DNA of 33,293 bases from Sphaeroforma arctica JP610 (Eukaryota): positions 1-33,293 of the forward strand of contig NW_014039661.1 in NCBI RefSeq assembly GCF_001186125.1. The letters run 5' to 3'. This document shows positions 6,118 through 26,924 of the stretch, in pieces. Position 1 is the stretch's first letter. Every line of letters starts with the position of its first letter. The position numbers were made by a program, and so were the translations under genes. The notes beneath the pieces are model-generated. The model saw only the letters and a list, made by a program, of their open reading frames with translations, was not told the DNA's origin and did not search any database.

Positions 6118-6985
6118 TCACGTCTCGTTTTTCTTGTTCTTTAGCTTGGCGCAAAGTATCACATGGGCAGATCCCCCCAAATAAGTTTTGATGACTGCGT
6201 TAGATACTACATATCGATCCTTAGCATCACAATAATCTATGAACTTCAGGTTTTTACATGTATCCTTAATAGCATCCCATGATAAACGCTTGAGTATACA
6301 CATTAAGGTATATAAATTCTGCGCAAGAAACTCCAGTATAACATTCTTAGTGGTGAAGCGGGCAAGACGAAGCAAGACTCTATCAAAACCGTACGCTATT
6401 ACAGCCTTCAAAATGAGCTTACACTCTGCTTTGAGTTGTTGTTCTGGGTCAACATTCTCGAATGCGAGAAGTACATCTCTTATGCGTGAAGTTCTAGCTT
6501 TGCGACGTTAGAATACAATTACTGCACCAGATCTCCACTCAACATCACAAATGATCTTATCACAGCCGAGAACAAAATATCCTGTATCATATAATAGTAT
6601 ATAGTCAACGGGGTTTTTAATTTGGAGAGCAAGCAGTTGCTGCTCCGCTTCCATTGGGGCTACCATGAATTCAATATCCTTATCACGACACAACAACATC
6701 AAATGTTCTGCATATGCAATATTATAATAAGCTACGGCTGCTTTACACTGCTTCTTTTCATCGAAAGTTTTGTCCTTATGCTTCCACTGCAGAAGCAATA
6801 ATATATAGTATTGATTAATATTAACCACATAATAATGTAGTGAGACCAATAAACGATCACGTAATAAGTATTATATACCTTAATATAGTCGTCGATAGAT
6901 TGCATTGCCAAATTCCTTCTAGCTTCTCGCTTTCGTTTGCGAGTTTGTCTCTCACTCGGTAGCCATCAAAGACAATGAACAATTG
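6118..6985 (-). pseudogene. XPG/FEN1/EXO1-family 5' nuclease pseudogene (XPG-N end, XPG-I, possible H3TH); probable intron 6787-6878
   Basis: FIVFDGY followed by a basic helix (RKRKREARRNLAM, after a frameshift). LMLLCRDKDIEFMVAPMEAEQQLLAL..VDYILLYDTGYFVLGCDKII resembles EXO1 VAPYEADAQLAYL..ITEDSDLLVFGC. A GT..AG intron joins the pieces in frame. Confidence 0.65.
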
Positions 6986-7982: not shown

Positions 7983-8168
7983 TATTGGAACTAGAAACTG
8001 TCAACATAATTGATTAAGTTTACTATTGAATATAGTTGTATATTTGTAGGATAATAAACGGAGTAAAAATTGTGTTCACGATTATTGACCACATGTGATT
8101 ATGCTCAGTAACCGAAAAACCTAGTTTAGGGTTTAAACCCAGATAGTCAGGTTTAACCTGTCCCAGTA
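7983..8168 (-). repeat. Copia LTR (186 bp, TA...TA termini)
   Basis: Closely similar to 22224-22409 and homologous to 18788-18988, which is followed by a PBS. Minus-strand termini are TACTGGGA...TTCCAATA. No clear PPT is adjacent. Confidence 0.75.
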
Positions 8169-8229: not shown

Positions 8230-8789
8230 CTCGTGGAGACACTTGGTAAGAAGGTCAGCGGGGTTCTCGTGCGTAGAGATGTAGCTATTGTTAATGATGC
8301 CCTGGTGGGCACAGTCGCGTATGTAGTGGGCTCGGACCTCGATGTGTTTGAGGCCTTTGGCGGTGCCCGTACCAAAAGCGACTTCAATAGCCAATTGATT
8401 GTCGACATGGAGATGAGTCGGATGGAGAACTGTGTGCCCGCAAGCATTGAGTATATTACGGACCCATGCAATATCACGCGTGGCCTCAGATGCCGCAATA
8501 TATTCGGCCTCTGTGGAACTTATACTGACAGTCCTTTTTTTTTTTGACTTCGCCAGTGGACGGGCGTGTTGTTCAGAGTGATGAGGGTGCCAGTATGTGA
8601 TTTCCGGGTGAGTGGGCAAGAGCCCCAGTATGAATCGGTATACGTTGTGAGGTGATGGCTGATGTCGAGCTTATCGGGGGCGGATGTGTAGCGTAGAGCA
8701 AATGTTTTAATAGTGACGAGATAGTGTAAAATGCGGGTCAGCGCATCGTAGTGAGGAATCAGGGGGGCTACACTGAAGAGAAGTGGCAT
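8230..8789 (-). pseudogene. Copia RT C-terminus and RNase H
   Basis: HYDALTRILHYL..YTDSYWGSCPLTRKSHTG..VHWRSQKK, a frameshift in the T11 run (~8535-8545), then TVSISSTEAEYIAASEA..VDNQLAI..KHIEVRAHYIRD..NPADLLTK. Confidence 0.92.
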
Positions 8790-9115: not shown

Positions 9116-10517
9116 CTAGCTGTTGCCCAGTCGCTGGGAATTTCCCATATAGATGGGGTAGAATCTCGTGTGGCATTGGGGGCGTTCCTTTGTAAAAATT
9201 TGGACGTCATGGCTATGGATAATCATCTGGGTCGAAAAACTCTGAATTGTGAACGTGTAATCGGTGCCATTTAGGACCTGGCCGCGGAGAACCCAAAGCC
9301 ACATGGCGGGGCATACTTGTGTTTGGGGTATGTAGTTGAAGCCTTTGTATATTTTAAATGCAACGACACAACCAGAACGCGTATGAGGGTACGTAGCGGC
9401 CGATTGTCTATGCCATATACGATGCGGAGTGAACAGTTTGGCATTCTTGGGAGGGGTACGATTCCGAAGGGTGTCAGCGAATGTTTTGGCGAAGCCCCAG
9501 AGAACAAGGGGCATACCAGCATCAAGTAAGAGGCATCAAACCAAGGTATTGAGGGTAGAGTGTTGGCGTTCGACCGCTGCGTTCATTTGGGGGGTGTTTG
9601 GTGGCGTAACACGGAGTGCCATATTCTGCGAGGTAAGATGATTGCGAAGGTTCTCGCTCTGGAGAGCAAAGTTTCCATCGGACGTGAGGGTGTGGGGTTT
9701 CCAGTGCCTCGGTATGTGTGTTAGAAGTTCGCCCACCTGCTGTTCCAACGACATTTTGTTGGGCAGGTTTTTGTGGATGCCGAATGTAGATACAGCGTCG
9801 ACCATGTTTAATGCATAAATATTGCCATCGCGATCATGGGGGATGGGACCCTGAAGGTCGATGTGCAGCTTTTCGCCAGGGCCATAGATAGTATCTGTTG
9901 ACTCACGGGCTACTCCCTTCGCGTGCATTTTAGGCTGGTTTTGCCAACTTTCTGAAATTGTGAAAATAGCCTTTTGGATCGAGTAAAACACCTTACTCCG
10001 GCAACTAAATTGTGTATTTCATATCCTCGTGCTGAAATTATGAAATGTATTTGAAATTCTGGAAAATTTTCAGGACAATTTGAAACTTGATATTCGTTCA
10101 GATTGTCCCTTTTGGCAAGTTCAAATTACAAGACTGCACCTCCAAGAAATTCTACTCAAAATTCGAAATCCGAAATTTTCCTCTAATAAGTGAAAACGAG
10201 GGTCAGACAACGTTTTCACTTGGATAAGAGAAATAGACTGTTCTATTTTAAAATCTACTCTGGCTTTTTTTTAGCGCACTTTTGAAATTACAGTATGTCA
10301 CATTTTTATGTATGGCGTTTGTCAACTGGACAATAGACTTTTTGAGGAAATTCTGGGCTGCCCTACAGCCATAATTTGTTGGACTGGCTATAAAAATTTC
10401 AATACAGTACTGGAAAAGAAACTATCCGAAATACAGTCCATAATTCCAAAAACAATAGTTTCCTCAGAGTTTTATAAAGTTGGCAAAACAGGCCTTAGCT
10501 TCGATGCAGGTGGGACA
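9116..10517 (-). pseudogene. Copia integrase (CxxC and rve core), split by a MITE
   Basis: Excising 9933-10494 plus one TTA restores KHCPTCIEAKMHAKGVARESTDTIYGPGEKLHIDLQGP..YALNMVD..TSDG..PQMNAAVER..LP-like/WGFA..RNRTP. Confidence 0.9.
9933..10494. mobile_element. Non-autonomous PIF/Harbinger (Tourist-like) MITE, 562 bp
   Basis: 25-bp TIRs GGCTGGTTTTGCCAACTTTCTGAAA vs GGCCTGTTTTGCCAACTTTATAAAA (21/25). TTA TSD at 9930-9932 and 10495-10497. Removal restores the integrase reading frame. Confidence 0.9.
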
Positions 10518-10597
10518 ATGTTTTTCGAACTTGGGGTTGGCCCGGGCAGCATAATGGCCGCTGTAAGTGCACTGGAGTCGCGAACAGCAGTATGAAG

Positions 10598-10916
10598 GGG
10601 ACCGATAAGAGCTACGATCGTGTAGAGCCAAGACGGACGGCCGACAACAGTAGTTCCGTGTCGGAGAAAGGGAGAGTACGTGTTACGTATGATGAAGGGG
10701 TCTGATTGAAAACGTGAGCTGACCGCCGTCCACCATTTGGCGCATGGTCGGAGGGGAATGACGATGGCCGTGGTTGCCCCGACCTTAGTAACAGCGTGGG
10801 TCATTTCGTAGATGTCGTTCCATATGGGGTTGCCATAGGCTTACTCGGGAAGGAAATTCACTTGCCGCCAGTCATTATCAACGCCGCCGCCTTCAGGGCC
10901 TGCGTAGCGAGGTACC
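10598..10916 (-). pseudogene. N6-adenine DNA methyltransferase-like domain of Copia A (C-terminal two thirds)
   Basis: VPRYAGPEGGGVDNDWRQVNFLPE*AYGNPIWNDIYEMTHAVTKVGATTAIVIPLRPCAKWW..DPFII..FLRHGT..WLYTIVALIGP; NPIW at 10820-10831; 23/81 ungapped identities to the Gypsy MTase domain. Confidence 0.8.
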
Positions 10917-11013
10917 TGTGTAAAAGCCGGGCCCCCACATTAGAATCTTGTAATATAAACGGACACTTAAAAGTACGTAAACTTAGTTTTCCCTAAATGG
11001 GTTTTAACAGTTT

Positions 11014-11044
<31 letters not shown>

Positions 11045-11734
11045 AATATATAAAGACAATCCAATTTGTTCAGTTAAGTAAATTTAAATGATTGTGAGGC
11101 CGACCACCTTTTCCATTTTACATATCAGATATTTGGACAAGGCCATTAAAAGCCCCCAGTAAAATACCAAATATAAGATTTGGACTAGTTCTATTAATAG
11201 AACTATATTTACTTTCCAAATCTATTTATATCTGAATACTTCGGTAGCGAGATGGCTCAACCGAACATAGGTTTCTAAGGACTATTAGCGTTGCTTAGTT
11301 TATCCTCTGTTCAGCCAACCAGATGTGCCAGTCTGATGCAGGCTAGTCGGTAATTCTTGATAAGTGGCAAGTTATTGGTTAGTACAATAACTATGGACTT
11401 CGAGAGTTTTTTTTTTCTATTTTTTTTCTAAAGATAGGATTTTATGAGTCTCTCGGATTCGCCCCAACGAAACATATCATAGTTTCTACTAGAGCGACGA
11501 CGAAACACTAAATAAAATCCCTTCGGCGAAAACAGTACTGAGAGGTATATATATATTGGCAATGTCTCAGCCTCACAATCCCTCAGAGTATTGCTGTCTT
11601 CACGAGGCTTACCTTAATTTATTAAAAGACTCACTTCAATTATTTACTTTGAAATTTTATTATACTTAGACCTAATCTAAGCGTTTAATTACTCTAAGGC
11701 GTTAATATCGCCTTGATAGACCGGAACTTACACA
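10917..11734 (+). repeat. Gypsy 5' LTR (~818 bp)
   Basis: Starts TGTGTAAAAGCCGG and ends CCGGAACTTACACA (inverted termini, TG...CA). Its first ~540 bp are repeated at 18341-18787, less a ~80-bp indel. The right end is inferred from the inverted terminus. Confidence 0.85.
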
Positions 11735-11836
11735 TTTTAAAGTTAGCAAAGGTATTAACTACTTAGACTACTTAAACGTAAAGGTAGATAACTACCTCAA
11801 TTTTTTTCCTAAACGCAGTCATTTAAGTTAAGTATT

Positions 11837-14051
11837 ATGACTAAGAAAGACAATACACCTGCAAAGAAACGCAAGGCCGAACGTAAGAAGATGGAGAGAG
11901 AAGCTGCAAGTGCCGCCGCTGCTGCCGATGCGTTTAACCGCACCGTAGCCGAAGCACTTGTCTCTGGCAATAACAGTCTGGACAATGCTTCGGATAAGGA
12001 TGCAGCCACTCCGATTACGGAGACTACCCTTGCAGAAAGAGCCCGAGGGCCAACTATTGCCTCAACTTAGAAGCTCGCATTTCGGAAGCCAAGAAGTGAG
12101 ACAAGGGACACATCTCAAGACGCCCCATCTAATCCTTCTGATGAAACTCAGAAAGAAAAGTCCCCAATTATAGGGGACAAAGACGAGTCTCAGAAGGTAC
12201 CTACACCGGAACCAGAAGAGGAGGCAAGCTCAAGTGGCAAACCCGAATCTACGTCCGAGACCACTGAGCTAACGAGCATAAGTAGGTTAACAACTGAAAA
12301 CACTGATCTTTAGAATCAGTTAGCCGCTTTTATGAAAGGCTTGTCTGTTGAACATGTAGATCGAATGTATGGAACGGAAAAACAAGCAAAGCGCTTACGC
12401 GAGCATGTTTCTCCAGACACTACTAAAGATCTACAGCAGTGGACGGAACGTCAGCAGTCAATGACGCCCGAAAAGCGTAAGGATTTGATTGCAAAACCTG
12501 TGGCAGTTGACCCAGATGCGCCCAGCATATCTATACCTTACGAGGAACTACCACCCGAAGTCCAGGTATTTTACACTCCTGTTCCTTCGCCCGGCCATGA
12601 GTCACCTGTTATTGAGGGTATTATAGACCCAGAGGCAGGTAAAAGGACTCCACCACCTTTACCCAACTGGGGAGACCGTTCACGTCAGAGACCAGTTAAA
12701 ACTGGGTATGTCATCCAGACGCATGAATCACTCAAGATAATAATACCAACGACTATCCAAGGAACAGTGCACCGAAAGGTCTCTACCATGGACTTTACAC
12801 GGGGCAATAAACCCCCGCGTAAGCGAATTAACGAAGTCAAGTTTAATCGCTTCGATCGAACTGCTTTGCATCAACCCGCAGAGGATTTCCATTCTGATGA
12901 AGTGACGGAACTTAAAAACTCGGTCGACGACTACATGATCAAAATGGACATTGCTCATGACCAGAAGAATGAAGCAGACATAACATATTATGCTAATAGG
13001 ATCGCGAATCAACAGAAGCGCATCGACCAACTACTTCAGGCCCAACGTGGACAAGACCACCGGGATAACCAGAAGTACAAGGGGCAGATCAGTCGACTTA
13101 AGTCGAACTGGGATGCTAGCAGCAAGCAGGTCGAGTTTATTAATAATCACGACCTCGACACGCTAACCCATACGCTAAATGCGCTTACGGTTATGCTGGA
13201 GACGATCGATATCGCTCCCCAGCAGTGGATTTCTGCATGAATGCAGTCATTCGACCCAACAGGAACAAGTTACTTGATCCTGCAGCGCCACCAACACGAG
13301 CTAGACGCCTGTGACGCTGTGTGTTGGTTAGTCACATCCTCATTAAGCAAGGACATGCGCAGTCCAGGACTGAGTTCAATCTTAACTGAACCAGTTGAAA
13401 ATACTCCTATTCAGAGCTACATTCTGGAACTCTATGCTTACCTTAAACGTCCAGATATAACAAAGGACAAGGCTCAGCGATGGTACGAGTTCCTGACAAT
13501 GCATGTTTTCTGTAAGAACATAGGGAACAACGACCGTGAAAATATGAACACCGAGTTGCGACGTAAGTACGCAACTGAGGCTCGAGACATGGGACATGAA
13601 ACAAAGTTTTATCTATCCCGACTTACGTGGGAACAGTTTTACGATACTGTATCCACCCTTTACCCCGCTCACCGAGTAACGAGGAAAGGCGGTAAATAAG
13701 AAATCGCGTGAACTCCCTGATCAAGGATATCTCTCACGACAGACGTCGGATGATATGCCTCATCAGACCCGTCCGAACCAGACACGCACTCGCGACTCTA
13801 CTCAGTCAACACGACCCAATAAGGGGGTACGCGCGGAGACGAAGGACAAGGAACCTTCATATATGGAAGCTAAGAAATGCGCCGACGCGCAGTGTGGGTA
13901 TGACATGTACCAATCAACCCCTAACGGTTATTGGAATGGAAGACATGCACTCAACTGTACACACTTCCTTACGAAGTGTGACAAGTGTGAAAAGACCAAT
14001 GGTTATCATGCCAAGTCTTGTGACAAGAAGCCCGACAGTAAGTTGGAGTGA
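11837..14051 (+). pseudogene. Gypsy gag-like ORF, interrupted
   Basis: Collinear same-frame ORFs 11837, 12332 and 13241 lie between the LTR and the protease. A C-terminal Cys/His cluster (CDKCEKTNGYHAKSC) follows a frameshift. Confidence 0.7.
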
Positions 14052-14139
14052 AAGTGCTACCAGGTACAATCGTTGCAAAGAAAATACAACGACTCCTTAG
14101 ATGAGCGTGTAATAATCTCTGTATATTGCAACTGAAATA

Positions 14140-15890
14140 AAGTCCTTGCATTGATTGATCCTGGTTCAGAAATTTCATGTATATCCGACCGCTTTGCATT
14201 AATGAAAGACATTGAAAGGCGAACTCAAACCACTCACCTTATTTTAGCAGATGATAAACTCCTAAGTGTGATACCACAGATGTTAAAATCTCCCCGGCCG
14301 ATGATAGAAATATCACTACTCAAGCTGTTATCGTTAAGATGTCACAGAAGCATGACATTATAGTCGGAATGAGCGATTTGCTCACGTTAGGGATAACCGT
14401 AACTGGCTTACCTAACAACATAGATCCATTAAAGGATCAATCAGACGATAATCATCTGAAACCATATACACCACCATCGGACACAGTCAAGGAATTAATT
14501 CCTGGCTTTGATAAGATAATGGATCTTATATTAGTAAATAAGAAGATAAAAATAACTGACTGGGCGAAATTCCGCTTTAACGACAGATACGTCAGCCTTG
14601 ACTTAACCAAGGTAGATTTTGCTAAGCTCAAATGCTCTTCAAGAAACTATGTTTCTTGGAGACATGAGGCTGTAGTGAATGAACAAGTTGAGAAATGGAT
14701 AGTCGATGGGGTAATCGAAATCAATTACCAACAAACGCCAGTAAACTTAGCACTACTGGCAGTTGATCAACACAACTTTGACGGAACATTAAAGGAAGTC
14801 AGAGTATGTCTAGACATGAGTCCAATAAATAAATTATTGCCGACTCATAGTTTTTATTTCCCTCGTATAAACGAGTTACTGAAACGAATGGAAGATGCTA
14901 CGGTGTTTACAACCATAGACCTGACACAGAGGTATCATCAACTGCAAATTTATAAACCCCATCGTAAGTACTTCAGTTTAACTTGGAAAGGTAAACCATA
15001 CCGGTTTAGAGGAGCACCTTTCGGGTTACACTCTTTACCAGCATTCTTCCAAAAAGTAATGTAAGAAATGTTTGCAGACATACCTAATGTGCAAGTCTAC
15101 ATAGATGACATAGTCATCATTTCGAAAACTAAGGGCGAACACGCCGCATTAGTCAGAAGAGTCCTTCAGCGACTCAACGAACGAAACTTCAAGATTAACG
15201 AGAAGAATTGTCACTTCGCCATGAGCGAAATACAGCTCTTAGGCTATCGCATATCGGGGGAAGGTATAAAATCGACCTAGGTAAGGTGGAACACCTGTTA
15301 GATTGGCGAACAACAACTACAGAAAGAGATGTAAATAGTGTGTGTGGATATGTAAACTTCTTCTCTGATGGAGTACCACACTTAGCTGATTATCTTAAAC
15401 CCTTTGGACACTTAAGATGTCCAAAAGGTAAACTAGGAGACTTGTGGACCAAAGAGTGTGATGACGCATTTAAGGCGCTCAAGCACACAGTCCAACAAGC
15501 CCCTATAGTACAAAGACCAGTCGATGGCGTGCCGTTTGAAATAGCAACGGATGCACCAGACTTCGCGCTCGGAGGAGTATTGTACCAGGTTATAGATAAT
15601 AAGCCTAGGTATATACAATTCTTTAGCCGAGCAGTGAACGCATCACAGTTAAATTATTCAACTGTGAAGCAAGAGCTACTTGTCACAGTAGCAGCTCTTC
15701 CGTGATTACGTATACGGAACAGCGTTTACGCTAATGTGTGATCAGAAATCCCTTCAGTATATGAAGAAGATGAAGCTAGACTCTCAATTATTGAGCCGAT
15801 GGCATGATACGATATCAAAGTTTCATTTTGACATCAAACATTTACCAGAGATACATAACCACTTACTGGATATGTTATCACGCTTCGTAC
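14140..15890 (+). pseudogene. Gypsy protease, reverse transcriptase and RNase H
   Basis: ALIDPGSEISCIS..HDIIVG (PR). VRVCLD..IDL..YHQ..PFGL..FQKVM*..VYIDD (YIDD at 15098-15109). FEIATDAPDFALGGVLYQ..FFSR..NYS..QELL..CDQKSL..DMLSR (Ty3-type RH). Confidence 0.95.
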
Positions 15891-15928
15891 CGGACTTTAA
15901 TAAACCCGTACGAGAGTTACTAGCCACG

Positions 15929-16333
15929 GACTGGAAATGTAACCCCAGGTGGTTTGAATTGGATCAAAATTAATCTGGGTCACATACCATAGATATGTTT
16001 GCTGCACATCATAATGCACAACTATCGAATTACTGGACTTTAAATCATCCTTTGAGAGACGCCTTTCAAATAGACCTCTCCAAACATAATGCGTGGGCTA
16101 ATCCACCATGGCAGTCAATTGGCCAGCTATTAAATTATGTTCATATACATAAAGCTACCATCACAATGTGTTGCCCATTACGGAGTAAAGATCCATGGCT
16201 CAATAAATTAATAAACATGATACAATGCGAGCCAATATATTTAGATAGGGAAGTAGATACTTTCCTATATCAGGGTACCCGAGACATCCAGAAGACGCCC
16301 TAGAGACATACTATAATATGTCGTATAGGTCCC
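15929..16333 (+). pseudogene. DIRS/phage-Dam-like N6-adenine DNA methyltransferase domain in Gypsy pol
   Basis: DWKCNPRWF..*SGSHTIDMFAAHHNAQLSNYW..DAFQIDL..AWANPPW(16100-16111)..CPLRSKDPWL..; in frame with the RNase H C-terminus; two premature stops (15971, 16301). Confidence 0.88.
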
Positions 16334-16779
16334 ATTGGAACAACCAAATGGACCCCTTCTGAGACCTTCCTTAACAAGGTCAAAGAATCAGAGATTCCAC
16401 TCTCTACCCAATTGAACGTTATGCAGTTCAAAGGCAACACAGCACTTGAAGTTTGTGCACAAGAAAAAAATCTACTAATGACACTACTGTTTAGAAGCGT
16501 CAGTCTCTAGCTAGGACTTTGTTTAATAACATAAAGTCCAAGCCCGAGGTCTTTCAAACCCTATTTCTAAAGGGACTAATGAAAGACAATCCTGAAGCGT
16601 ATACACATATAATGCGACTATTTAATAAGCCAGGTGTATCAAACGCACATGAGCGCACTCATGACACTCATGCGAAAGCAGGACAGGAGTCTGGAAACAC
16701 TACAAACTTAGAGACCACGCAAGTGGATTCTCAACACCCTACCTTTATTCTGGAGGAGCAGAATGATGAAAACATTCTT

Positions 16780-17780
16780 ACTTGGCTGACGCAAAACCAT
16801 AAGCTGAAGCACCAGAACGTAGTAGACGCACTTAAAGATGCAAAGCGAAATGAGATCGCGCACCCTATACTGGCAACTTTAGTTGGCAGAGTATATCAGT
16901 CATGTACAGACTGTGATCTCAATCAGATCAAGCGCCATGGGTTTGCTCCGCTTAAGAGTGTGACTGAAGATGTTACATGGCGAAGGGTCATCATTGATCT
17001 GGTTGACCTGCCTACGTCCGAACACACAGGTGACCGTTACGTATGACACTTCTTTGATGTCGCGTCACGGTATAACTTGCTCTATCCTTTAAAGGACAAG
17101 AGTACGCAGACCGTAGCAGAATTATGTTGCCAAGTCTTTGCTGACCACGGATGGCCAGGTATTATGTGCACTGATAACGGTAGTGTGTTATGCGATGACG
17201 TAATGGAATCGCTAGTACTCATGTCAGGCATATGCCATAAGAGAGGTGTGCCATATAAGCCGCAAACGCAAGACGCGAATGAAACGCGCCATAGAAGACT
17301 TAAGTTCTTCTTGCGTACTGCATTAACAGATGATGCAGATGATTGGCCGTACCACCTTAAGTTGGTACAAACACAGATGAACGAGTGTGCTGATCCGGAT
17401 ACAGGAACTACACTCGCTCACTATTTTCGTGGCAGACATAGTGAGTTACAAATACCCTTTAAAAAGGACGAACCTGATCACCATGAGTTGCCATGGTTAG
17501 AGAAGGTACAACGCATACACAACGTTGTATATCCTTGCTTGCGAGAGACACTTAATGTGGCCTTAATAAAAAGGCAAAATAGATGGAATGCTACCAAGAA
17601 GATAGCAGAGTATCAGGTGGGAGACAGAGTTAACATCCGTCAACGTAATTCCGATGCTACTGTACTAGCATCGAAATGGATAGGACCATATGTAATCTCT
17701 GTAACTGACATCAAAAGTGGAACCTATGAGGTTAATAACCCTGACGGTTCTAGTGCTCTAAATATAGACACTAGTCGAAT
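16780..17780 (+). pseudogene. Gypsy integrase (HHCC, DDE core, C-terminal GD..WIGPY module)
   Basis: NHKLKH..CTDC; RVIIDLVDL..DVASRY; CTDNGS; YKPQTQDANE; YQVGDRV..SKWIGPY. Confidence 0.92.
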
Positions 17781-18330
17781 TCCGATTACTGAGAATATCC
17801 TCGCAAGAAGACATGATTCTACTGCACCCCTTGTCCACTCCGAATTCCAAGATAAAAAACATGGAGAACGGATAAAGGAGGATATACATATTATCGTACA
17901 CGCTTTATATACGGTACAATCGCTGAAATAACTTCAGACGCTTTTGACAATAAGGACTATTTAAAGGCCTTTAACAGAAAATGGCGTAAACGCCTACATA
18001 CGTCACAGGCTGAAAAAGATAGCATGTTTCCATCATCTGAAGGCACCGAAGTTAAAACTTACTAGCCAACAGCATTTATTCCGAGCTCTACTGCTCATCC
18101 TTCGTATGTTCCAAAAACATTGAAGCGTAAGAAACGTCCAGTCGACCACCATGGACCTACTGGACCTAAGTCCAAAACTCACAGGGCAACCGAGAACGCT
18201 TAACTTCTCCGCCTGAGAAACATTAACTATACGTTATGCTACTTAATGATTTCGACCCGTTTTCCTTTCCCCTTTTTTTGACCCGTAATCAGCTTGAGTG
18301 AGCAACTTGCTTTTCTTGGGTCTCAAAGCT

Positions 18331-18340
18331 GGGTGGGGGC
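18331..18340 (+). promoter_or_regulatory. Polypurine tract of the Gypsy element
   Basis: GGGTGGGGGC immediately before the 3' LTR. Confidence 0.75.
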
Positions 18341-18787
18341 TGTGTAAAAGCCGGGCCTCCACATTAGAATCTTGTAATATAAACGTACTCTTAAAAGTAC
18401 GTAAACTTAGTTTTCCTTCAATAGTTTTTAACAGTTTGAATAATTAAATACCTTTTCCATTTTACATATCAGATATTTGGACAAGGCCATTAAAAGCCCC
18501 CAGTAAAATACCAAATATAAGATTTGGACTAGTTCTATTAATAGAACTATATTTACTTTCCAAATCTATTTATATCTGAATACTTCGGTAGCGAGATGGC
18601 TCAACCGAACATATGTTTCTAAGGACTGTTAGCGTTGCTTAGTTTATCCTCCGTTCAGCCAACCAGATGTGCCAGTCTGATGAAGGCTAGTCGGTAATTC
18701 TTGATAAGGGGCAAGTTATTGGTTAATACAATAACTATGGACATCAAGAGTATTTTCCTTAAAGATAGGATTTCATGAGTCTCTCGG
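18341..18787 (+). repeat. Gypsy 3' LTR, truncated by Copia B
   Basis: Direct repeat of the 5' LTR (6 mismatches counted over the ~290-bp central block). Homology ends where the Copia LTR starts. Confidence 0.92.
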
Positions 18788-18988
18788 TTTCGGACCACGC
18801 CAAATTTGTCCTCTGGAATTTTAACACAAACTAGGTTTTTCTTCATGACTCATCACTTTATGGTTCACGGCGATGTGAACTATTCTTCACCCACAATTTT
18901 CACTTAGTCTTCTGAACTACTTATATTGTAGCATAATACCAATAAACAGACTACTCAGTTCTTTTCCCAAAGTTTATACGTTCCAATA
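18788..18988 (+). repeat. Copia B 5' LTR (~201 bp)
   Basis: Shares CCTCTGG..AAACTAGGTTTTTC and the terminal GTTCCAATA with the minus-strand LTRs. Confidence 0.75.
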
Positions 18989-18998
18989 GGTTATGGGC
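18989..18998 (+). promoter_or_regulatory. Primer-binding site, half-tRNAiMet (Drosophila copia) type; contains the gag ATG
   Basis: GGTTATGGGC directly after the LTR end. Confidence 0.8.
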
Positions 18999-20393
18999 TA
19001 TTATAATACGGACGAAGACTTTGTCTTAGAGCGTGAACACCACTCCACCACGCTTCTCATCGACGACGACGATGGATACGCCACTCCGGACCAAGACCGC
19101 CACCCCACCTACCACCATGATTCCACCCCACCCCGTGCCCCTGATACCCCATATCGGCCTCCATTCCCTGAGGCATAACCCCTCGCGCGATCTACTTTCG
19201 TCCCCCTATTTCCCCCCAGTAGTCCCCCTAAGTCCACATCTCACGACATCATGCTCACTACTAAAGATTCTCCACACCGCTGGACTTGGACTATTCTTTC
19301 TGTCTCTGGTAATCCATTCAATACCTGGAAAACAGATATCTACCTTGCTGCTGCCACCGAGTATATTATTGATCTCCGCCCGCTACTTGTTTATGATGAC
19401 CTTGTCCATTCAGAAGCATCTACCAATACCTTTATCGCATCTCACAAGGAATCTGGAACATAGCAACGTGCAACCCAGGTTATACTTCGATCGCTTTCCG
19501 CCGAACTCGGCACTTCCCCCGATAACTCTACGTTTCTGAACCATCCATGGAAACTCTTGGAGACCATCATTAGCCGATTTCAACATAATTCTGCTAAAGA
19601 GCGTAAGAACATCAACCATGCCTATCTTCGCCGGTTTAAACGTCGCAATGACGAAGCCCTCCGTGAATGGGCCTATCGTTGTGAAGTTCTCTTCTGCCAG
19701 GCTGATAAACAGGGCACCCGTTTTTCTACCGAATTTCAACAGAATCTGTCTCTTTCTGACCTACCTGACAGCTACCAGGAACAAGTAAAGGGTTATATAC
19801 TTGGTCTCACCACATCCCGGACCCTAATCACTATCCAACGCTTGTGCCTGTATATTGAGAAATGGGAAATTCTCAACAATATTACCACCCCTCGCGTCAA
19901 TCGCGCCACCACTCCGGCGCCTCTCACATTGAATGGTACCATCGCAGCTAAGTGCCTGGGTGCCCTTACTGCCAACACCACAACACCAGCACCCCGTAAG
20001 TTTCAGTGCTATGTCTGCTGGTCTGACAAACATCATAGCGGTCGCTGTACAGTTGCATGTGGCAAGTGTGGTATTAAGACTCACACTGCACGTGAATGTA
20101 CCACTACACCACTAACTTGTACCAACTGCTCACACTTTAACCACTTGGCACTTGTATGTAGCAAGAGAAGCAATAAAGCAAATTTTCCCTACTCCAACCA
20201 CCCCCAATCTACCTCCCCACATACCACCACCACCGCCCGCATATCTAAGATACATACTATCAAACGATGTACACCCAAGTATCAAGACACATTACCTATC
20301 GATGGCGGAGCAACTGTTAACTACTTAAATGACAAATTAAGCAATCGTGTAACACGTCGAACAAGGTTCATATTATTTATTACTGGCCGATGA
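18993..20393 (+). pseudogene. Copia B gag-protease
   Basis: CYVCWSDKHHSGRC, CGKCGIKTHTAREC and CTNCSHFNHLALVC knuckles; PIDGGATVNY (DGGAT at 20301-20315); stops upstream. Confidence 0.85.
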
Positions 20394-20985
20394 ATCTTCC
20401 ACAATTATTACTAAACGAGGTTCACTCCTCAATTTGGGTATCGCCTACGTCAGCCCCACTCCAATTCAACAACTGGTATCTCAGAACATGATCCCAAGAC
20501 AATGGACACACCCTCGTCTTTCCACAGGATATCAACCAGTGCATCCTTTCTAGAGGCAACCACTCAATCACGATCCGTCGTTCTCGGGGAGGATATCATG
20601 TTACCTTTGATCAACTGGCGGCATTCAACACCCCCCAAGATACCGTCTGCACAATTCGCTCTCCGGCAGCACCAACTACTCCACCGTTGACCACTCCCCA
20701 TGAACGCCCTCCCGCCCCCCCCCCCCCCACCCCAACTACCTTCGATCCCCCCATTCCGATTACACCCGCCGCACCTACCTTCCCACCAGTCCCAACCCCG
20801 TTACGGTGGCGTCCATCGCACCATATTCATTAGTATCTACGACTCCAGCATCCGCTACCACCACCATGACCTATGACGAGTTTCACGCTAACTCTGGTCA
20901 CCTCAGTCGTATGGCCACACTCCGCCTGGCCAAACGTCACAACATTGCCCTCACCTACCCTCCTAAGCCGTCTGTTCAGACTAAT

Positions 20986-21221
20986 GCCTGGCAACTCAAT
21001 CCTACTGAATGGCGGCCTGCGCTTCTAAAAGTGATACACATCTTCGATACTACGCGAGCCCAGACGGTTCCGGCCTCTATACTGATTGGCGTGACATCGA
21101 TTTCCTTTTTGAATCTGCATATACCAATCCTAAGTGGGAGGACCTCTACGAAATTACTCACCATATCACGAAGGTAGGCGCTACAGCCTCTATCGTCGCC
21201 CCTCTCCGACCTTGTGCATAA
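20986..21221 (+). pseudogene. N6-adenine methyltransferase-like domain of Copia B (N-terminal part, internal deletions)
   Basis: AWQLNPTEW / ACASKSDTHLRYYASPDGSGLYTDWRDIDFLFESAYTNPKW(21126-21137)EDLYEITHHITKVGATASIVAPLRPCA; 35/57 identical to Copia A. Confidence 0.8.
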
Positions 21222-21316
21222 TGACACTCTCGTTGCCGATGGAGATTCTGACCTACAAAGTGACATTCTCACCACTCACCTTGCTTCTAAGGGTATTGAA
21301 CTTCGGTTCCCCCCCC

Positions 21317-21391
21317 NNNNNNNNNNNNNNNNNNNNNNNNNNNNNNNNNNNNNNNNNNNNNNNNNNNNNNNNNNNNNNNNNNNNNNNNNNN
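21317..21391. other. Assembly gap
   Basis: Run of N. Confidence 1.
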
Positions 21392-22223
21392 ATAATTAAT
21401 ATCCTACATCTACTAATGTCTCAAATAGGTCCAAGTAGATGAGTCATACCAAATACTCAGGCTATTGGAGCCATCAAAGTGCATTTAGAACACTTTGGAA
21501 ATATTGGAAAAAGAGCTTGTATTAAATTATTTAAAATACAAATAAAAACCAATGTATTATCTCAATTGATCTTGATATTTTAGACTGACCGGAGGCCGTA
21601 TTTCTACAGAGGTTGCCTGGGATTGCAACTCGACTCAATGGCCAGCACAAACCCACTCACCCCTCGGACGCAACCTGCCTGGGCCCACGACAAACCATCA
21701 CTGCGCTTCCCGTACAGTATCTATGTCCACTTAAAGATTGTATACAAAACCACGGACGGGCGTACACCAGACCATGTAGCCCTCCGCCGACGATGTGACG
21801 ACATTAGAAAGAAATTAATAAAACGCTGGTCCAGCAAGGAGATCGCGGCAATGGCCCGGCGTCAATACTACTACCAATTGGTCATGGGCATACCGCCAAC
21901 CTCAGATCGGGACAAAGCCAGACACGACAGCTTCAACCACTGCTTCGAGCCTACACCAATCCGGCTCTGTGCTATGATTGTAACAAAATATGTACATGTT
22001 CACATTGATCGACTACCGCACTGGCGGCTGTCTCTGCCCTGTCTGGCCCTGTGGCCAAAAATTCTATTCTCCATTGTCGACTCACTTGGTCCAAGCTTCA
22101 ACAGGGAATTTACTGACCACTTCTTCCCATCTATCTTCCCCGAACCACTACACCGGCTATGAGAGCCATACCATATGTACAAACATTGTAACTTAACTCT
22201 TTTGAAATATATAATATTATCCC

Positions 22224-22409
22224 TATTGGAACTAGAAAACTGACATCATAATTGATTAAATTTATTATTGAATATATTTGTATATTTGTAGGAAAATAAT
22301 GGGGGTAAAAATTGTGTTCACGATTATTGACCACAATGATTAAGCTCAGTAACCGAAAAACCTAGTTTAGGGTTTAAACCCAGAGGGTCAGGTTTAACCT
22401 GTCCCGATA
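22224..22409 (-). repeat. Isolated Copia LTR (186 bp)
   Basis: Same family as 7983-8168; termini TATCGGGA...TTCCAATA; no PBS and no matching TSD. Confidence 0.8.
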
Positions 22410-23856
22410 AATGTCGACCCCTGAGAGACCCTTGCTCTAGACTTATTGACCAATCAGGTGGTCTATATCCATTGTTCCTCTGGATTCCTGGAGAGTGGAA
22501 AGTCAAAATTGAAAATAGCTGGAGACTTATAAATATGTAAATATGCATGTACAATAGAGACAAAAATTAGACACTCGGTGACTCGACTCTCAAGAAACCC
22601 CCCTCTAAAATCCTCTATACACCCTATACAGTAGGAGGAAAATTAGGACCCTCTAAAAAGGCCCCCAAACCAAAATTCAGTCACGAAACTACAATATTTT
22701 ATGAGCGGTAAGCTAATAGTCCGATACAGGGAGAGGAAGGAGGAAATCGGTTATTACATACATGAAATATAATTATATATTTACATACCGCAGGGCGAAG
22801 AGTATCAAAATTCATAGCCGCCTTCAAATGGAATTATGGAACCCAAAATTGGATAGGAGGCTATGCCAGATTGCCAGAGATTGCCAAGCCCAGCAGAAAC
22901 AAAAAAAAATTGACTGGGAACGCCTGGGCATCATTTTGAAGCCCCAACGGCCCACGGCTGGGCCCATAATAGTGACTCTCTCTCTACTCTCTAATGAAGT
23001 CTAGAGTCTCTCTACTACTAATCTCTACTACTAGTCTAGTAGTAGTGAGCGACTGAACACCGAGTGAGCGGTGACACCCCAGCATGCCCCACCCTCTTTC
23101 TCTCTACTAGAGAGAGTGAGGCAGGGCTAAAATAGATACGAAAATACGTCACCAGTATGCCCATAGCCTCGTCCCCTACCCTGAGCCCTGAGGCCTCTGG
23201 TCTGAGACTCGAGTCAATAGTCAGTCCAGAGTCCAGAGTCCAGAGTCCAGAGAGCAATAAATACATGGCGTTCTAAAAAAAGATTGTTGGGAATACTCTT
23301 GTTGGGAGGCTATGTATCAGATCCTACTGCTTCAGTTCCTATGTATGTATTTATTTCCAAAATACATATGTACAGTACATACTATATACTACTATTGTTT
23401 AAAAAACAAAAACACAAAAAAACAAAAAAACAAAAAAAAACAATCATGGCCTCCTCTTATTAGTTAATACATAAATACGAATGACCTATTTGTTCAATTT
23501 TATAGTGGGCTAATCCATTGCCTTCTAAAATACGGAAGAAGGCTATGGCTAATCCTAAATATCAATATATGTTATGACTTGTGAGGCCATGCATAGCGTT
23601 GTTAAACCCTAAAACCCTAGATTGCTAGAACCCTAAAACCCAAAAGAAGACAACTTATTTACTTTCTTCATTCAGAACAGGGCCCTGCTTTCATTTTTTT
23701 ATAAATCAATATATCTATGGCGAGGAATAGATGCGTGATGCACAATGCATCTGAGATCATTGTGTTTTGAGCTTTACGTTGTTCTTTGTAAATAGAACGA
23801 ACGGATTTTGTCGTTATCAACAGGAATAGAAGATTATACTGAGTTTGCCGAGAATA

Positions 23857-24921
23857 ATGTCAATATGGAGGACTTTTTCGCATTCGAACGGCGTTTGTTC
23901 AGCTCTTACACAACTCACACAACGTCACAGTCTCAACCAATCTAGACTATGTACACGTTTATTACATAGCCATACCAAGGCTGTAAATTTGAAGTACCCA
24001 CGACTCCGTACAAGCGCTATCGTAAGCACCGAGCGTTGTTTACCTCATACGAGGTTGATAGCTTCAGCACACACAGACGCACATCATATTGGTGGTTCAA
24101 AGGCACATGTAGTCGGACCAAAAACACCCGAATTATTGTCATGTACTATAGGGCAAATGCTCAAAGATACCGCTGCTAAGCATCCGTTACAAAAGGCGTT
24201 TGTGTGCAGAGAAGAGGCTGTCACGCTCACATATAAAGACTTGGATGAACAATCCGATGTACTCGCTAGAGGATTGCAAAAGTTGGGTGTAGCTCACGGT
24301 GACCGTGTGGGTGTGTGGCTGCCCAACTGTTCACAGTATGTGCTGCTGCAGTATGCCACGGCTAAGATAGGTGCTATACTTACCACCATGAATCCTGCGT
24401 ATCGAGCTGCTGAGGCGGTACATGCGATGAACTTGGTGGAATGCAAGGTGCTGGTGATCACGCCCGAGGTATCCAGAACAAACTACGTGCAGCTGTGCGA
24501 GGAGATGTGCCCTGAGCTCAATGAGTCCGAACCCCGGCTACCACGCGACAAGAGTGATGGACAAAGGCTGAATTTAAGCGCGGTGCCGACGCTGGAGCAT
24601 ATCATCAATGTGAGCGATATGGCGACACCGGGCATGCTTAGATACAAAGATGTGGTGAACTTTGGGGGCGACTGTGTAGATAACAATGGAGACGCGAACG
24701 GGTTGGTATTGGATATCACACCAACAGCTCAGGATGTGATCAATATACAATTCACAAGTGGTACCACGGGGAAACCCAAAGCTGCGGCCCTGACACACGC
24801 TAATATACTCAACAACGGACTCATGAATGCCGACCGATTGGGGGTAAGATAACCATGTGTCTGTGTAAAATCATATACCAAAGTGGATCCGTCCCTCCAT
24901 GAGAATGTATATATTCTTCTA

Positions 24922-25004
<83 letters not shown>

Positions 25005-25089
25005 GTTGTAGTATGTATGTATATATGTAAATGTATATATGTATATATGTAAATATGTATATATGTAAATATGTATTTATGTATATATG

Positions 25090-25122
<33 letters not shown>

Positions 25123-26924
25123 ATATGATATATGTATATATATATTATAAGTGGGTGTGGGTGTGCTATTTTGCTCTATATCATGCGTTGCTGCTTGGTA
25201 TCCATTATATACATGTGCGTTATGCCTGTATGTCCACGTCACACTACTACTCACTCAAACGCTATGTGCACATACATTTCACATCCTGCAGTACACTATG
25301 AATGATAGCATTTGCGTGCCGGTCCCCCTATACCACTGCTTTGGCCTGGTGATAGGGAACCTGGCTGCCTTGACCCGTGCGTGTACGGTCGTATACCCGT
25401 CAGCGACTTTCAACCCGGAGAAGGTACTACAGGCTGTTCATGAGGAGCGATGCACGTCTCTGTACGGAGTGCCTACCCACTTCATTGCCGAGCTATCTCA
25501 TCCCAACTTCAATCAGGTGTGTGAGATGCTATCCTCGACGATCCAGTGTGTCCTTGCTCTGAAAGGTGTACGTACCATGTGTGTAAAGCGCATACGTACC
25601 ATGTGTGTAAAGCATATACTTGTCATGTGTGTAAAATATATACTTAACACGTGTGCAAAACATATATGCAAGTTGAGTAATTTTTTTTTGTAAAACAGTG
25701 TTTGTGAATCTAGGTTTCTGGGCGGGTGCTAAGTACTGGAAGATTACATGCGCTCCTCAGCAACCTCTACTGCTATAAAGGTGTTGAAGAGTGTTGTCTA
25801 CGTTGATACCACATCCCTACACAAGCCCGTCGCTGTTCGTCTGAATAGCAATTGCAAGACTGAGCAAGGGAACCATACAGTTTTGTGCCATACAGCAATG
25901 ACCCTTATACCCAATGCACCCCCATAAACCAATACCATTTACAGTACTATCTCAGCAACTTGCGTTGAATAGCTGAGAACCGATGTATCTAATGTCTACT
26001 TACACCAATGCACCTCCAAAAACCAATTCCAACCAATACCATTCACAGTACGATCTCAGTAGTCTGCGCACCGGTGTGATGGCCGGGAGCTCCTGCCCCG
26101 AGGAAGTCATGCAACGGGTGATTAAGCAGATGCATATGAAAGATGTCACCATCTGCTACGGCATGACCGAGACAAGTCCGGTGAGTTTCCAGACCAACCA
26201 GAGCGACCCGTTAGACAAGCGCGTGAGCACTGTGGGCCGTATACACCCGCACCTGGAGGCTAAGCTCGTGCGACCAACCTCCGAGGAGAGTGAACCGGAC
26301 ACCAGTGTGCCCAAGGACGATGATGTGTGCGATATAGGGGAAGCCGGTGAGCTGTGGGTGCGAGGCTATGCCGTGATGAAGGAGTACTACAACGGTGACC
26401 CAAAGAACCACCCGGTCACTGACGACGGCTGGATACAGACAGGCGACCTGTGTGTGATGGACCAGGAGAGGTACCTGAGCGTGGTGGGACGGATCAAGGA
26501 TATCATCATCCGCGGGGGTGAGAACATATACCCGCGGGAGATTGAAGAGGTGGTGTTCAAGGTGCCCGGTGTGCAGCAGGTGAGTGTGGTGGGGGTGCGC
26601 AACGAGCTGTTCGGCGAAGAGGTCTGTGCGGTGGTGGCCATAGACGAGGACGCGTTCGACCACAGTGACCCACACAGTCCAACAGCCCACAGTTCGCATG
26701 TGTCACTGAGTGATGCGTTTGATGTGGAGATCACAGCGCGGGTGCGAGAAGCGGTGCGGAACGAACTCGCCCATTACAAGGTCCCGTCGGTGGTGGTTGT
26801 CATGGAGATAGAGGACATACCTATCACCGTCACGGGCAAAATCAAGAAGAAGGAACTGACACAGCAAGTCGAGAAGATCCTGGAGAAAACACGCGCGAAG
26901 GCCCAGGCTCAGGCATCGGCCTGA
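23857..26924 (+). CDS. ACSF2: Acyl-CoA synthetase, ACSF2-like (AMP-binding), ~695 aa, probably mitochondrial; exons 23857-24843, 25292-25516, 26049-26924
   Basis: [57 protein letters not shown] and TGKI motifs. Phase-0 GT-AG joins DRLG|YTMND and PNFNQ|YDLSS. R/S/L-rich, acid-poor N-terminus. The start codon is inferred. Confidence 0.92.
24927..25144. repeat. (TA)n and (TATG)n microsatellites in ACSF2-like intron 1
   Basis: Direct inspection. Confidence 0.95.

What the first reader, a model, noticed from the sequence alone, without database searches (positions are those of the whole stretch)
10598..21221. Copia and Gypsy LTR retrotransposons share an N6-adenine DNA methyltransferase domain placed just upstream of the integrase core
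Seen: three homologous domains, in Gypsy (15929-16333 +), Copia A (10598-10916 -) and Copia B (20986-21221 +). Gypsy vs Copia A align without gaps over 81 aa (AWANPPW..CPLR..W..Q.EP..FLYQGT..TIICRIGP vs AYGNPIW..IPLR..W..Q.DP..FLRHGT..TIVALIGP) with 23 identities. Established: DW.LNP..F / ID.FA...N / DAF / [NF]PP[WF] is the phage-Dam-like MTase signature of DIRS1-type tyrosine-recombinase retroelements, and is not a standard part of DDE-integrase LTR elements. Inference: two superfamilies with different pol orders (PR-RT-RH-MT-INT vs PR-MT-INT-RT-RH) both keep the MTase next to the integrase N-terminus. This suggests capture or inter-superfamily exchange and an integrase-linked role, such as marking new cDNA or the insertion site with 6mA (an active-gene mark in several unicellular eukaryotes) or steering target choice. 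I cannot verify novelty against the literature.
Basis: partly seen in the sequence, partly recalled or inferred. Interest (0 to 1): 0.95.

Follow-up and report, generated by a model that had tools for sequence, protein, structure and literature searches.

The report
Copia integrase with embedded adenine methyltransferase
In a single-celled relative of animals, Copia-type jumping genes carry an adenine-methyltransferase-like domain spliced into the zinc finger of their integrase, likely taken from Gypsy elements in the same genome, where it would travel with the new DNA copy and might mark it; the Gypsy version was described in 2026, the Copia one was not found in print.

Summary
Confirmed: three homologous Dam-like domains (23/81 ungapped identities, z 17; profile-profile E 1e-10). 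The Gypsy one is a broken copy of the ichthyosporean DAM-LTR lineage of a May 2026 preprint, so that half is known; this scan noted Gypsy-DAM before on other DNA. The Copia half is not in that text. The domain is not upstream of the integrase but inside it: in window copies A and B and in an unbroken Sphaeroforma arctica protein (SARC_09551) it sits between the HH and CC halves of the integrase zinc finger (H-to-C spacing 194 aa against 28 in a plain Copia). It folds as a Rossmann N6-adenine methyltransferase, is under purifying selection between Copia families (dN/dS 0.13-0.22) and has Copia base composition. A tree nests it among Gypsy DAMs (99/96), but AU tests reject no alternative. Its motifs are altered (NP[I/K]W, DAF to DWR), so activity is open. 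In Gypsy the domain follows RNase H, 145-196 aa from the zinc finger, so a shared integrase link is overstated. A second, metagenomic Copia carries Dam before its protease. No fully intact Copia-DAM was seen. New variant; interest 0.6.

The parts
7983..8168 (-). Copia A 3' LTR
   Evidence: 92% identical over 184 nt to the LTR at 22224-22409; termini located
8250..8780 (-). Copia A RNase H and the tail of RT; most of RT is deleted; one frameshift
   Evidence: translations; ESM Atlas score 0.95 to a Tnt1-94 Pol cluster
9119..9929 (-). Copia A integrase core (D 9859, D 9679, E 9571), one stop
   Evidence: Pfam rve E 3.6e-4 and 1.2e-3, below cut-off; motif positions
9933..10494 (.). 562-bp MITE inserted in Copia A just after the CxxC: 19-bp TIRs (17 of 19 match), TTA target duplication, 35% GC
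   Evidence: multi-copy in contigs with ends at 9933 and 10496
10495..10597 (-). Copia A linker and CxxC half of the integrase zinc finger (CPTC at 10517); one frameshift in this copy
   Evidence: a related contig reads through the linker in frame
10598..10916 (-). Copia A Dam-like domain, C-terminal two thirds (NPIW), cut at its 5' side by the Gypsy insertion
   Evidence: 53% identical to P0008 220-342
10917..11457 (+). Gypsy 5' LTR (part shared with the 3' LTR; true end not fixed)
   Evidence: 427 matches, 20 mismatches to the 3' LTR
14100..15900 (+). Gypsy PR-RT-RNase H, broken
   Evidence: Pfam RVT_1, RT_RNaseH; 60-69% identical to intact P0001
15929..16333 (+). Gypsy Dam-like domain (DMFA, DAF, NPPW), two stops
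   Evidence: Pfam Dam E 9.4e-5; intact relatives P0001, P0002 at 68-70%
16800..17930 (+). Gypsy integrase (own HHCC finger, core), broken
   Evidence: Pfam rve; tblastn to P0001
18331..18787 (+). Gypsy polypurine tract and 3' LTR, cut short where Copia B's LTR begins
   Evidence: junction bridged by contigs in 3 of 4 runs
18788..18997 (+). Copia B 5' LTR followed by primer-binding site GGTTATGGG (copia-type, label recalled)
   Evidence: aligns to Copia A LTR; position
19464..20700 (+). Copia B gag and protease (DGGAT at 20301), broken
   Evidence: protease region matches P0008 20-110; no Pfam hit
20884..20988 (+). Copia B HH half of the integrase zinc finger (H-x4-H at 20884/20899) plus 29 residues
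   Evidence: weak Pfam Integrase_H2C2 E 0.15; same stretch in P0008
20989..21218 (+). Copia B Dam-like domain, N-terminal half (NPKW), frameshift near its start; rest deleted
   Evidence: 45% identical to P0008 210-280; z 9.1 against phage F108 Dam
21220..21316 (+). Copia B integrase core fragment after the deletion; assembly gap follows (21317-21391)
   Evidence: matches Copia A core; gap
22224..22409 (-). LTR of the Copia A family; possibly A's 5' LTR (flanks match 3 of 5 only, no primer site)

Best explanation
The window is a nest of broken retrotransposons in which two Copia elements carry a Dam-like domain inside the zinc finger of their integrase, likely captured from a DAM-bearing Gypsy of the same genome and likely used to methylate adenines in the new DNA copy while it is held by integrase. 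Shown: the order gag-PR-[HH]-MT-[CC]-core-RT-RH, pieced from A and B and read in one unbroken ORF in P0008; the N6-adenine methyltransferase fold (predicted); long purifying selection. Inferred: (1) a protease cut cannot free the domain without splitting the zinc finger, so mature integrase would carry it into the integration complex and nucleus (about 0.85); (2) the donor was an ichthyosporean Gypsy DAM-LTR, by recombination between elements (about 0.7); (3) the domain lacks a target-recognition part, so integrase would supply the DNA binding, and SAM-dependent 6mA laid on cDNA ends or the insertion site would be kept by the host AMT1 and keep the copy transcribable (about 0.45; host model taken from the preprint). 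The Gypsy in the window is an ordinary broken member of the published lineage.
For: P0008 (S. arctica SARC_09551): H155-x4-H160, domain W190-P327, C355xxC358; H160 to C355 is 194 aa against 28 aa in the uninterrupted finger of Copia P0044. Window B gives the same 29 aa from H to domain start, window A the same 27-codon distance to CxxC. Further copies at other loci in 3 of 4 runs: one contig with RNase H and the domain, one joining integrase core to the linker side, one covering the domain's end. Model of P0008: residues 190-330 at pLDDT about 90-97, HH helices 73-83; VIA-align best rows PCIF1 Z 10.8 (rmsd 3.0, 137 aligned), DIMT1 10.3, T4Dam 8.8, EcoDam 8.6, M.TaqI 8.3. dN/dS A vs B 0.13-0.22, dS 1.3-1.9, Fisher p 2e-6 to 2e-5. 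Copia domains have Copia composition (C 0.30-0.32), the Gypsy one Gypsy composition (A 0.34). Tree of 43 rows: Copia rows inside a 99/96 group with 16 Gypsy rows; best non-self scores of a Copia profile are Gypsy rows P0012, P0001, P0011. N, first Pro and aromatic of motif IV, the three groups that contact the target adenine (PMC3814359, passages), and motif I DLFA are kept in P0008.
Against: Second Pro of motif IV is kept in 148 of 156 aligned rows but changed in all 3 Sphaeroforma Copia rows; DAF is DWR in all 3 (W at that column in 3 of 156 rows): activity may be lost. The preprint saw no 6mA gain when TE DAMs were expressed in dam-minus E. coli. AU tests rejected none of three alternatives (p 0.24, 0.16, 0.26), the Copia branch is long, and with phage rows the root is unsure. 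CxxC region of the model is at pLDDT 46, so closure of the finger around the insert is not modelled. The fold leaned on 45 non-Copia rows of 49. No copy seen is intact from gag to RNase H; P0008 stops at the start of the core; A and B are single-copy at 85% identity while the Gypsy is very abundant, so the family is not a present success. Best structural matches are RNA adenine methyltransferases.
Confidence: 0.45

Rival explanations
1. Same architecture and origin, but the Copia domain is no longer a catalyst: it is a nucleic-acid or 6mA-binding module on integrase that steers insertion (for example to or away from 6mA-rich promoter chromatin) or stabilises the integration complex.
For: Lineage-specific changes at motif IV and at the DAF motif in all 3 copies, long branch, yet strong purifying selection. 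Position on integrase is where targeting modules such as chromodomains act (preprint, whole text). Motif IV is also altered in other DAM elements (FPP 23 of 156 rows).
Against: Catalytic N, first Pro, aromatic, motif I D and motif III D are all kept; a dead domain would be expected to lose some of them over dS above 1.
Confidence: 0.3
2. The domain methylates RNA or the RNA-DNA intermediate inside the particle (genomic RNA, primer tRNA or strong-stop DNA); the place in integrase is only a tolerated loop.
For: Top fold matches are PCIF1, DIMT1, Erm and KsgA ahead of T4Dam; 2 of 150 hits also score on the Pfam PCIF1 model; the domain turns up in several places in pol (after RH, before PR as in P0044 and P0016, before RT as in P0017/P0019); the preprint's negative test used double-stranded DNA and raises a hybrid substrate.
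Against: Z differences of 1-2 among Rossmann folds show no substrate; sequence relatives are phage DNA methyltransferases (14 of 16 phage matches annotated so).
Confidence: 0.18
3. The Copia domains are debris: pieces of Gypsy or DIRS copies caught in a nest of insertions, or an assembly chimera.
For: The locus is heavily nested, has an assembly gap, and a DAM-Gypsy is inserted right in Copia A's domain.
Against: 41% DNA identity to the Gypsy domain, opposite strand in A, Copia-like composition, same in-frame position in three families, codon-level selection, junctions in contigs of independent runs.
Confidence: 0.03

Closest known systems
DAM-LTR retrotransposons, ichthyosporean lineage (Fernandez-Moreno et al., bioRxiv 10.64898/2026.05.21.726589; whole main text read, supplements not seen)
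   Same: Dam-like domain in an LTR element with DDE integrase, in S. arctica and Abeoforma; the window's Gypsy fits it (PR-RT-RH-MT-IN; relatives named SARC_08637, Awhi).
   Different: All LTR lineages there are called Ty3/Gypsy-like; copia, Ty1, Pseudoviridae, RVT_2 occur 0 times; classification used RVT_1, and 46.1% of DAMs were left orphan. Here Copia order, insertion inside the integrase zinc finger, and altered motifs.
DIRS retrotransposons with MT domain (PMC3783388, passages)
   Same: Same Pfam Dam domain family; RT-RH-MT block as in the Gypsy here.
   Different: DIRS use a tyrosine recombinase and lack protease and DDE integrase; these elements have both and direct LTRs.
Phage-encoded Dam (PF05869, PHROG 111; e.g. 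Pasteurella phage F108 Dam)
   Same: Motif layout; 24% identity over 81% of the Gypsy domain; Copia B z 9.1 against F108 Dam.
   Different: Stand-alone phage genes; the C-terminal third shared by Copia and Gypsy is not matched by phage Dams (Copia A z below 2).
Retrotransposon-borne cytosine DNMTs (de Mendoza et al. 2018, PMC5890265, passages)
   Same: Recurrent capture of a DNA methyltransferase domain into pol.
   Different: C5-cytosine enzymes in LINE, DIRS and Gypsy; that paper states Symbiodinium Copia lack a DNMT.
PCIF1/CAPAM, KsgA/Erm, T4Dam folds
   Same: Rossmann N6-adenine methyltransferase core, Z 8.3-10.8.
   Different: 7-13% identity; no target-recognition domain in the retroelement version.

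Membership tests
DAM-LTR (Ty3/Gypsy) - window Gypsy | RVT_1-type RT, RNase H, then DDE integrase, between direct LTRs | tested here: met
DAM-LTR (Ty3/Gypsy) - window Gypsy | Dam PF05869 domain in pol with NPP motif | tested here: met
   E 9.4e-5 in the window copy, 7e-6 and 8e-5 in intact P0001, P0002 (below curated cut-off); NPPW
DAM-LTR (Ty3/Gypsy) - window Gypsy | Raised 6mA and transcription of insertions | not testable with these tools
   no modification data; no RNA holder listed
DAM-LTR as published (Ty3/Gypsy) - window Copia A and B | Gypsy domain order and RVT_1 RT | tested here: not met
   integrase precedes RT tail and RNase H in A; protease is followed by the integrase finger in B and P0008
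Ty1/Copia | Order PR-IN-RT-RH | tested here: met
   A: IN then RT tail and RH; B and P0008: PR then IN finger; a further contig holds the domain and RH in the same orientation
Ty1/Copia | Copia-type RNase H | tested here: met
   ESM Atlas 0.95, Tnt1-94 family cluster among the three best; a lead-grade tool, no E-value
Ty1/Copia | RVT_2 reverse transcriptase and RT phylogeny | tested here: inconclusive
   RT is deleted in A and lost at the gap in B; no RVT_2 hit in the window or in the 150 proteins listed
Ty1/Copia | Copia protease (Pol_BBD) and gag_pre-integrase Pfam models | tested here: inconclusive
   no hit for A, B or P0008; weak BLAST pieces of P0008 to those regions of P0044, E 0.007 and 0.033; P0044 itself hits both
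N6-adenine methyltransferase, phage-Dam type - Copia domain | Rossmann amino-methyltransferase fold | tested here: met
   predicted model, Z 8.3-10.8 to PCIF1, KsgA, T4Dam, M.TaqI
N6-adenine methyltransferase, phage-Dam type - Copia domain | Full (D/N)PP(Y/F/W) motif IV consensus | tested here: not met
   NPIW, NPIW, NPKW; the three contact groups remain
N6-adenine methyltransferase, phage-Dam type - Copia domain | SAM-binding motif I acidic residue | tested here: met
   DLFA in P0008; decayed in B, missing in A
N6-adenine methyltransferase, phage-Dam type - Copia domain | Methyl transfer to adenine in DNA | not testable with these tools
   needs an assay
DIRS (tyrosine-recombinase retroelements) | Tyrosine recombinase in place of DDE integrase, no protease | tested here: not met
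   all three elements show rve-type cores and protease motifs

The most novel reading that the evidence does not exclude
A chimeric integrase-methyltransferase: Copia integrase carries its own 6mA writer inside the zinc finger and stamps each new insertion with the host's active-gene mark at the moment of integration; Copia captured Dam-like domains at least twice (Sphaeroforma, inside integrase; an unnamed metagenome element, before the protease), and part of the orphan DAMs in the 2026 survey are Copia-borne.
Probability: 0.35. Interest if true: 0.8.

Novelty: new variant of a known kind. Interest (0 to 1): 0.6.

Why it matters
It extends DAM capture from DIRS and Gypsy to the distant Copia superfamily and shows a roughly 165-residue enzyme fold tolerated inside the integrase zinc finger, which I did not find described. 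It also sharpens an open question left by the 2026 preprint, whose isolated DAM domains were inactive in E. coli: here nature supplies the missing context as one polypeptide, so an integrase-tethered methylation test on LTR-end DNA can be set up directly, and existing S. arctica nanopore 6mA data can be split by Copia with and without the domain.

Tried and rejected
No whole genome was held. Word-index protein searches with the Copia A domain (49 candidates) and integrase core (166 candidates) found nothing. Viral-contig scans with three queries and one genome-contig scan found no relative; the metagenome scan gave 2 loci, both chance matches in bacterial genes. ESM Atlas had no usable hit for the Copia B domain. 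PDB sequence search with the 5-row profile: 1 match at E 9.1, unrelated. PHROGs hit the Gypsy domain (phrog_111, E 2.5e-4) but not the window Copia pieces. A first fold of the Gypsy domain from 3 sequences failed (pLDDT 40.7) and its viral Foldseek search was uninformative. No RNA holder listed among the runs; run X21 gave no laid contig. No tRNA genes. The careful 89-row tree did not finish; a quick tree was read instead; the 43-row tree used LG+G4, left out Copia B, phage rows and most DIRS-like rows, and its DIRS and ICH labels rest on domain layout, not on a seen recombinase or named host. Rejected: one continuous 600-bp linker between domain and core in A (it is a MITE); the LTR at 22224-22409 as proven 5' LTR of A (flanks match 3 of 5). 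A separate Pfam test of the protease and HH parts of P0008 on their own was not obtained. Literature searches for a Copia-borne Dam (listings only, apart from the papers named) showed none; subscription journals, Repbase and the preprint's supplementary figures (domain co-occurrence, Supplementary Fig. 1-2) were not visible and may bear on novelty.
Full report
Setting. The window is eukaryotic: microsatellite-rich, with an intron-split acyl-CoA synthetase gene at 23830-26924. The closest named relatives of both the Copia and the Gypsy domains are Sphaeroforma arctica proteins (SARC_09551, SARC_08637, SARC_09892) and Abeoforma whisleri proteins, so the host is inferred to be S. arctica or a close ichthyosporean; no call names the window's source.

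Observation. The three domains are real and homologous. Gypsy vs Copia A gives 23 identities in 81 ungapped residues, score 102 against 25.9 +/- 4.4 in 5000 shuffles, none reaching it; Copia A vs B z 34; Gypsy vs B z 8.6. Profile-profile: probability 97, E 1.2e-10. Contigs from three of four laid runs repeat the key junctions letter for letter; the fourth, shallow run did not cover them. In those runs Copia A and B lie near single-copy depth and the Gypsy far above it (depth is summed over contigs and is no copy number).

Anatomy. Copia A runs on the minus strand: domain (10916-10598), linker and CxxC (CPTC at 10517), a 562-bp MITE with TTA duplication (9933-10494), integrase core with D, D, E, a RT mostly deleted, RNase H and 3' LTR. 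A Gypsy (LTRs from 10917 and 18341, 427 matches and 20 mismatches) sits in A's methyltransferase codons. Its 3' LTR is cut at 18787, where Copia B starts: LTR, primer site, gag, protease, H-x4-H (20884, 20899), 29 residues, then the domain's first half, a deletion, a piece of core and an assembly gap. B thus shows HH before the domain and A shows CC after it.

The unbroken proof. A profile search of 1.84 billion representatives gave 1104 hits at E 0.001 or better, 150 listed. All 150 were scanned with Pfam; flanks were read by eye for the first 60 ids. P0008 (SARC_09551, 394 aa) reads protease, H155-x4-H160, domain W190-P327 with DLFA and NPIW, then C355xxC358 and the first strand of the core, where it ends. 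It is 53% identical to A and 45% to B over the domain and also matches B's protease and HH region. H-to-C spacing is 194 aa, against 28 aa in P0044, a Copia with an uninterrupted finger. Laying contigs on A at 80% showed more copies in 3 of 4 runs: one contig with RNase H and the domain (18 differences in 133 nt, 524 letters between), one joining core to linker side, and in one run a contig over the domain's end whose loose end continues the linker in frame, so A's frameshift is copy-specific. None of the copies seen is intact end to end.

The Gypsy. Intact relatives P0001 and P0002 (68-70% in the domain) read PR-RT-RH-MT-IN in one ORF. There the domain starts 20 aa after the RNase H end and ends 196 and 145 aa before the element's own zinc finger. 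This is the RT-RH-MT block known from DIRS (PMC3783388, passages) with an integrase behind it; whether it stays with RT or integrase after cleavage is unknown.

What the domain is. Pfam Dam hits P0008 at E 1.2e-5. Phage matches to the Gypsy domain are weak (E 0.03-0.8), but 14 of 16 lie on annotated methyltransferase genes and 2 on unannotated records. A model of P0008 with 48 further rows has the domain at pLDDT about 90-97, the HH helices at 73-83 and the CxxC at 46. Foldseek: 1 match under E 0.001, PCIF1, then KsgA and Erm. VIA-align over 48,161 chains: PCIF1 Z 10.8, DIMT1 10.3, T4Dam 8.8, EcoDam 8.6, M.TaqI 8.3. Between A and B the domain shows differences 12/5/26 by codon position over 44 codons, dN/dS 0.13 (0.20-0.22 on longer windows), dS 1.3-1.9 near saturation. 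Base composition follows the host element. It is an old, selected part of this Copia clade.

Is it active? In DNA m6A methyltransferases the D/N side chain, the first proline's carbonyl and the aromatic ring engage the adenine (PMC3814359, passages); all three remain. But the second proline, kept in 148 of 156 rows, is I or K in all three Sphaeroforma Copia, and DAF has become DWR. The preprint found no activity for TE DAMs in E. coli. I put methylation of DNA in the integration complex at 0.45, a non-catalytic binder at 0.3, an RNA or hybrid substrate at 0.18.

Origin. In a 43-row tree the two Copia rows sit within a 99/96 group of 16 Gypsy rows, next to the window's own Gypsy family at 81/77; the quick 89-row tree agrees on the side (98) but places the phage rows there too. 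A Copia-only profile scores Gypsy rows highest, though the rows were chosen by a profile that held both. AU tests rejected neither one clade for all Copia (p 0.24), nor Copia with DIRS (0.16), nor Gypsy alone (0.26). Gypsy to Copia transfer is likely, not shown. P0044 (JGI/IMG, 1647-nt contig, host unnamed) reads Dam with NPPF, Copia protease, gag_pre-integrase finger, core and falls among other LTR rows (90/89): a probable second capture in another position, from one partial sequence.

What is known. bioRxiv 10.64898/2026.05.21.726589 (whole main text) reports DAM domains in Gypsy-like LTR elements, names an ichthyosporean lineage in Pirum, Abeoforma and S. arctica, finds more 6mA and expression on them, and proposes seeding of AMT1-kept 6mA. 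Eight literature searches listed no Copia-borne Dam. Earlier notes of this scan hold Gypsy-DAM and Copia with cytosine methyltransferases, none with Copia-DAM; unchecked. The labels copia-type primer site, PIF/Harbinger-like MITE and motif numbers I and III are recalled, from no call.

Verdict. Observation confirmed; interpretation partly supported. Gypsy part already known; Copia part a new variant with an unusual, testable architecture. Interest 0.6.

Noticed in passing
P0044 (JGI/IMG protein, 525 aa): Second Copia with a Dam-like domain (intact NPPF) placed before the protease and an uninterrupted integrase zinc finger; host unnamed, RT not on the contig.
   Followed up: partly
window 9933-10494 and 2317-2820: Multi-copy MITE with GGC-starting TIRs and TTA duplication (PIF/Harbinger-like, recalled); a weak DDE_Tnp_4 transposase remnant (E 0.03) lies at 2317-2820; link not tested.
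   Followed up: partly
window 10917: The DAM-Gypsy inserted within the Dam codons of Copia A, and Copia B begins inside the Gypsy 3' LTR: three DAM elements nested in one another; may be chance or shared target preference.
   Followed up: no
P0001 and P0002 C-termini: A stretch after integrase looks by eye like a degenerate chromodomain; no Pfam hit at E up to 1; the preprint says this lineage lacks chromodomains.
   Followed up: no
P0017, P0019: Gypsy-type polyproteins with an endonuclease/exonuclease/phosphatase domain and Dam before RT; P0016, P0094 carry Dam before an apparent protease.
   Followed up: no
P0002: Intact Gypsy ORF whose motif IV reads CPPW instead of NPPW.
   Followed up: no
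window 21609-22220: High-copy element of unknown type with a 192-codon open frame (21584-22162) and no Pfam hit.
   Followed up: no
window 5508-6870 (-): Remnant with a Pfam XPG_I match (E 4e-7), possibly a nuclease gene or mobile element piece.
   Followed up: no
window 7983-8168, 18788-18988, 22224-22409: These Copia LTRs begin TA or TT and end TA (CCAATA) rather than TG...CA.
   Followed up: partly
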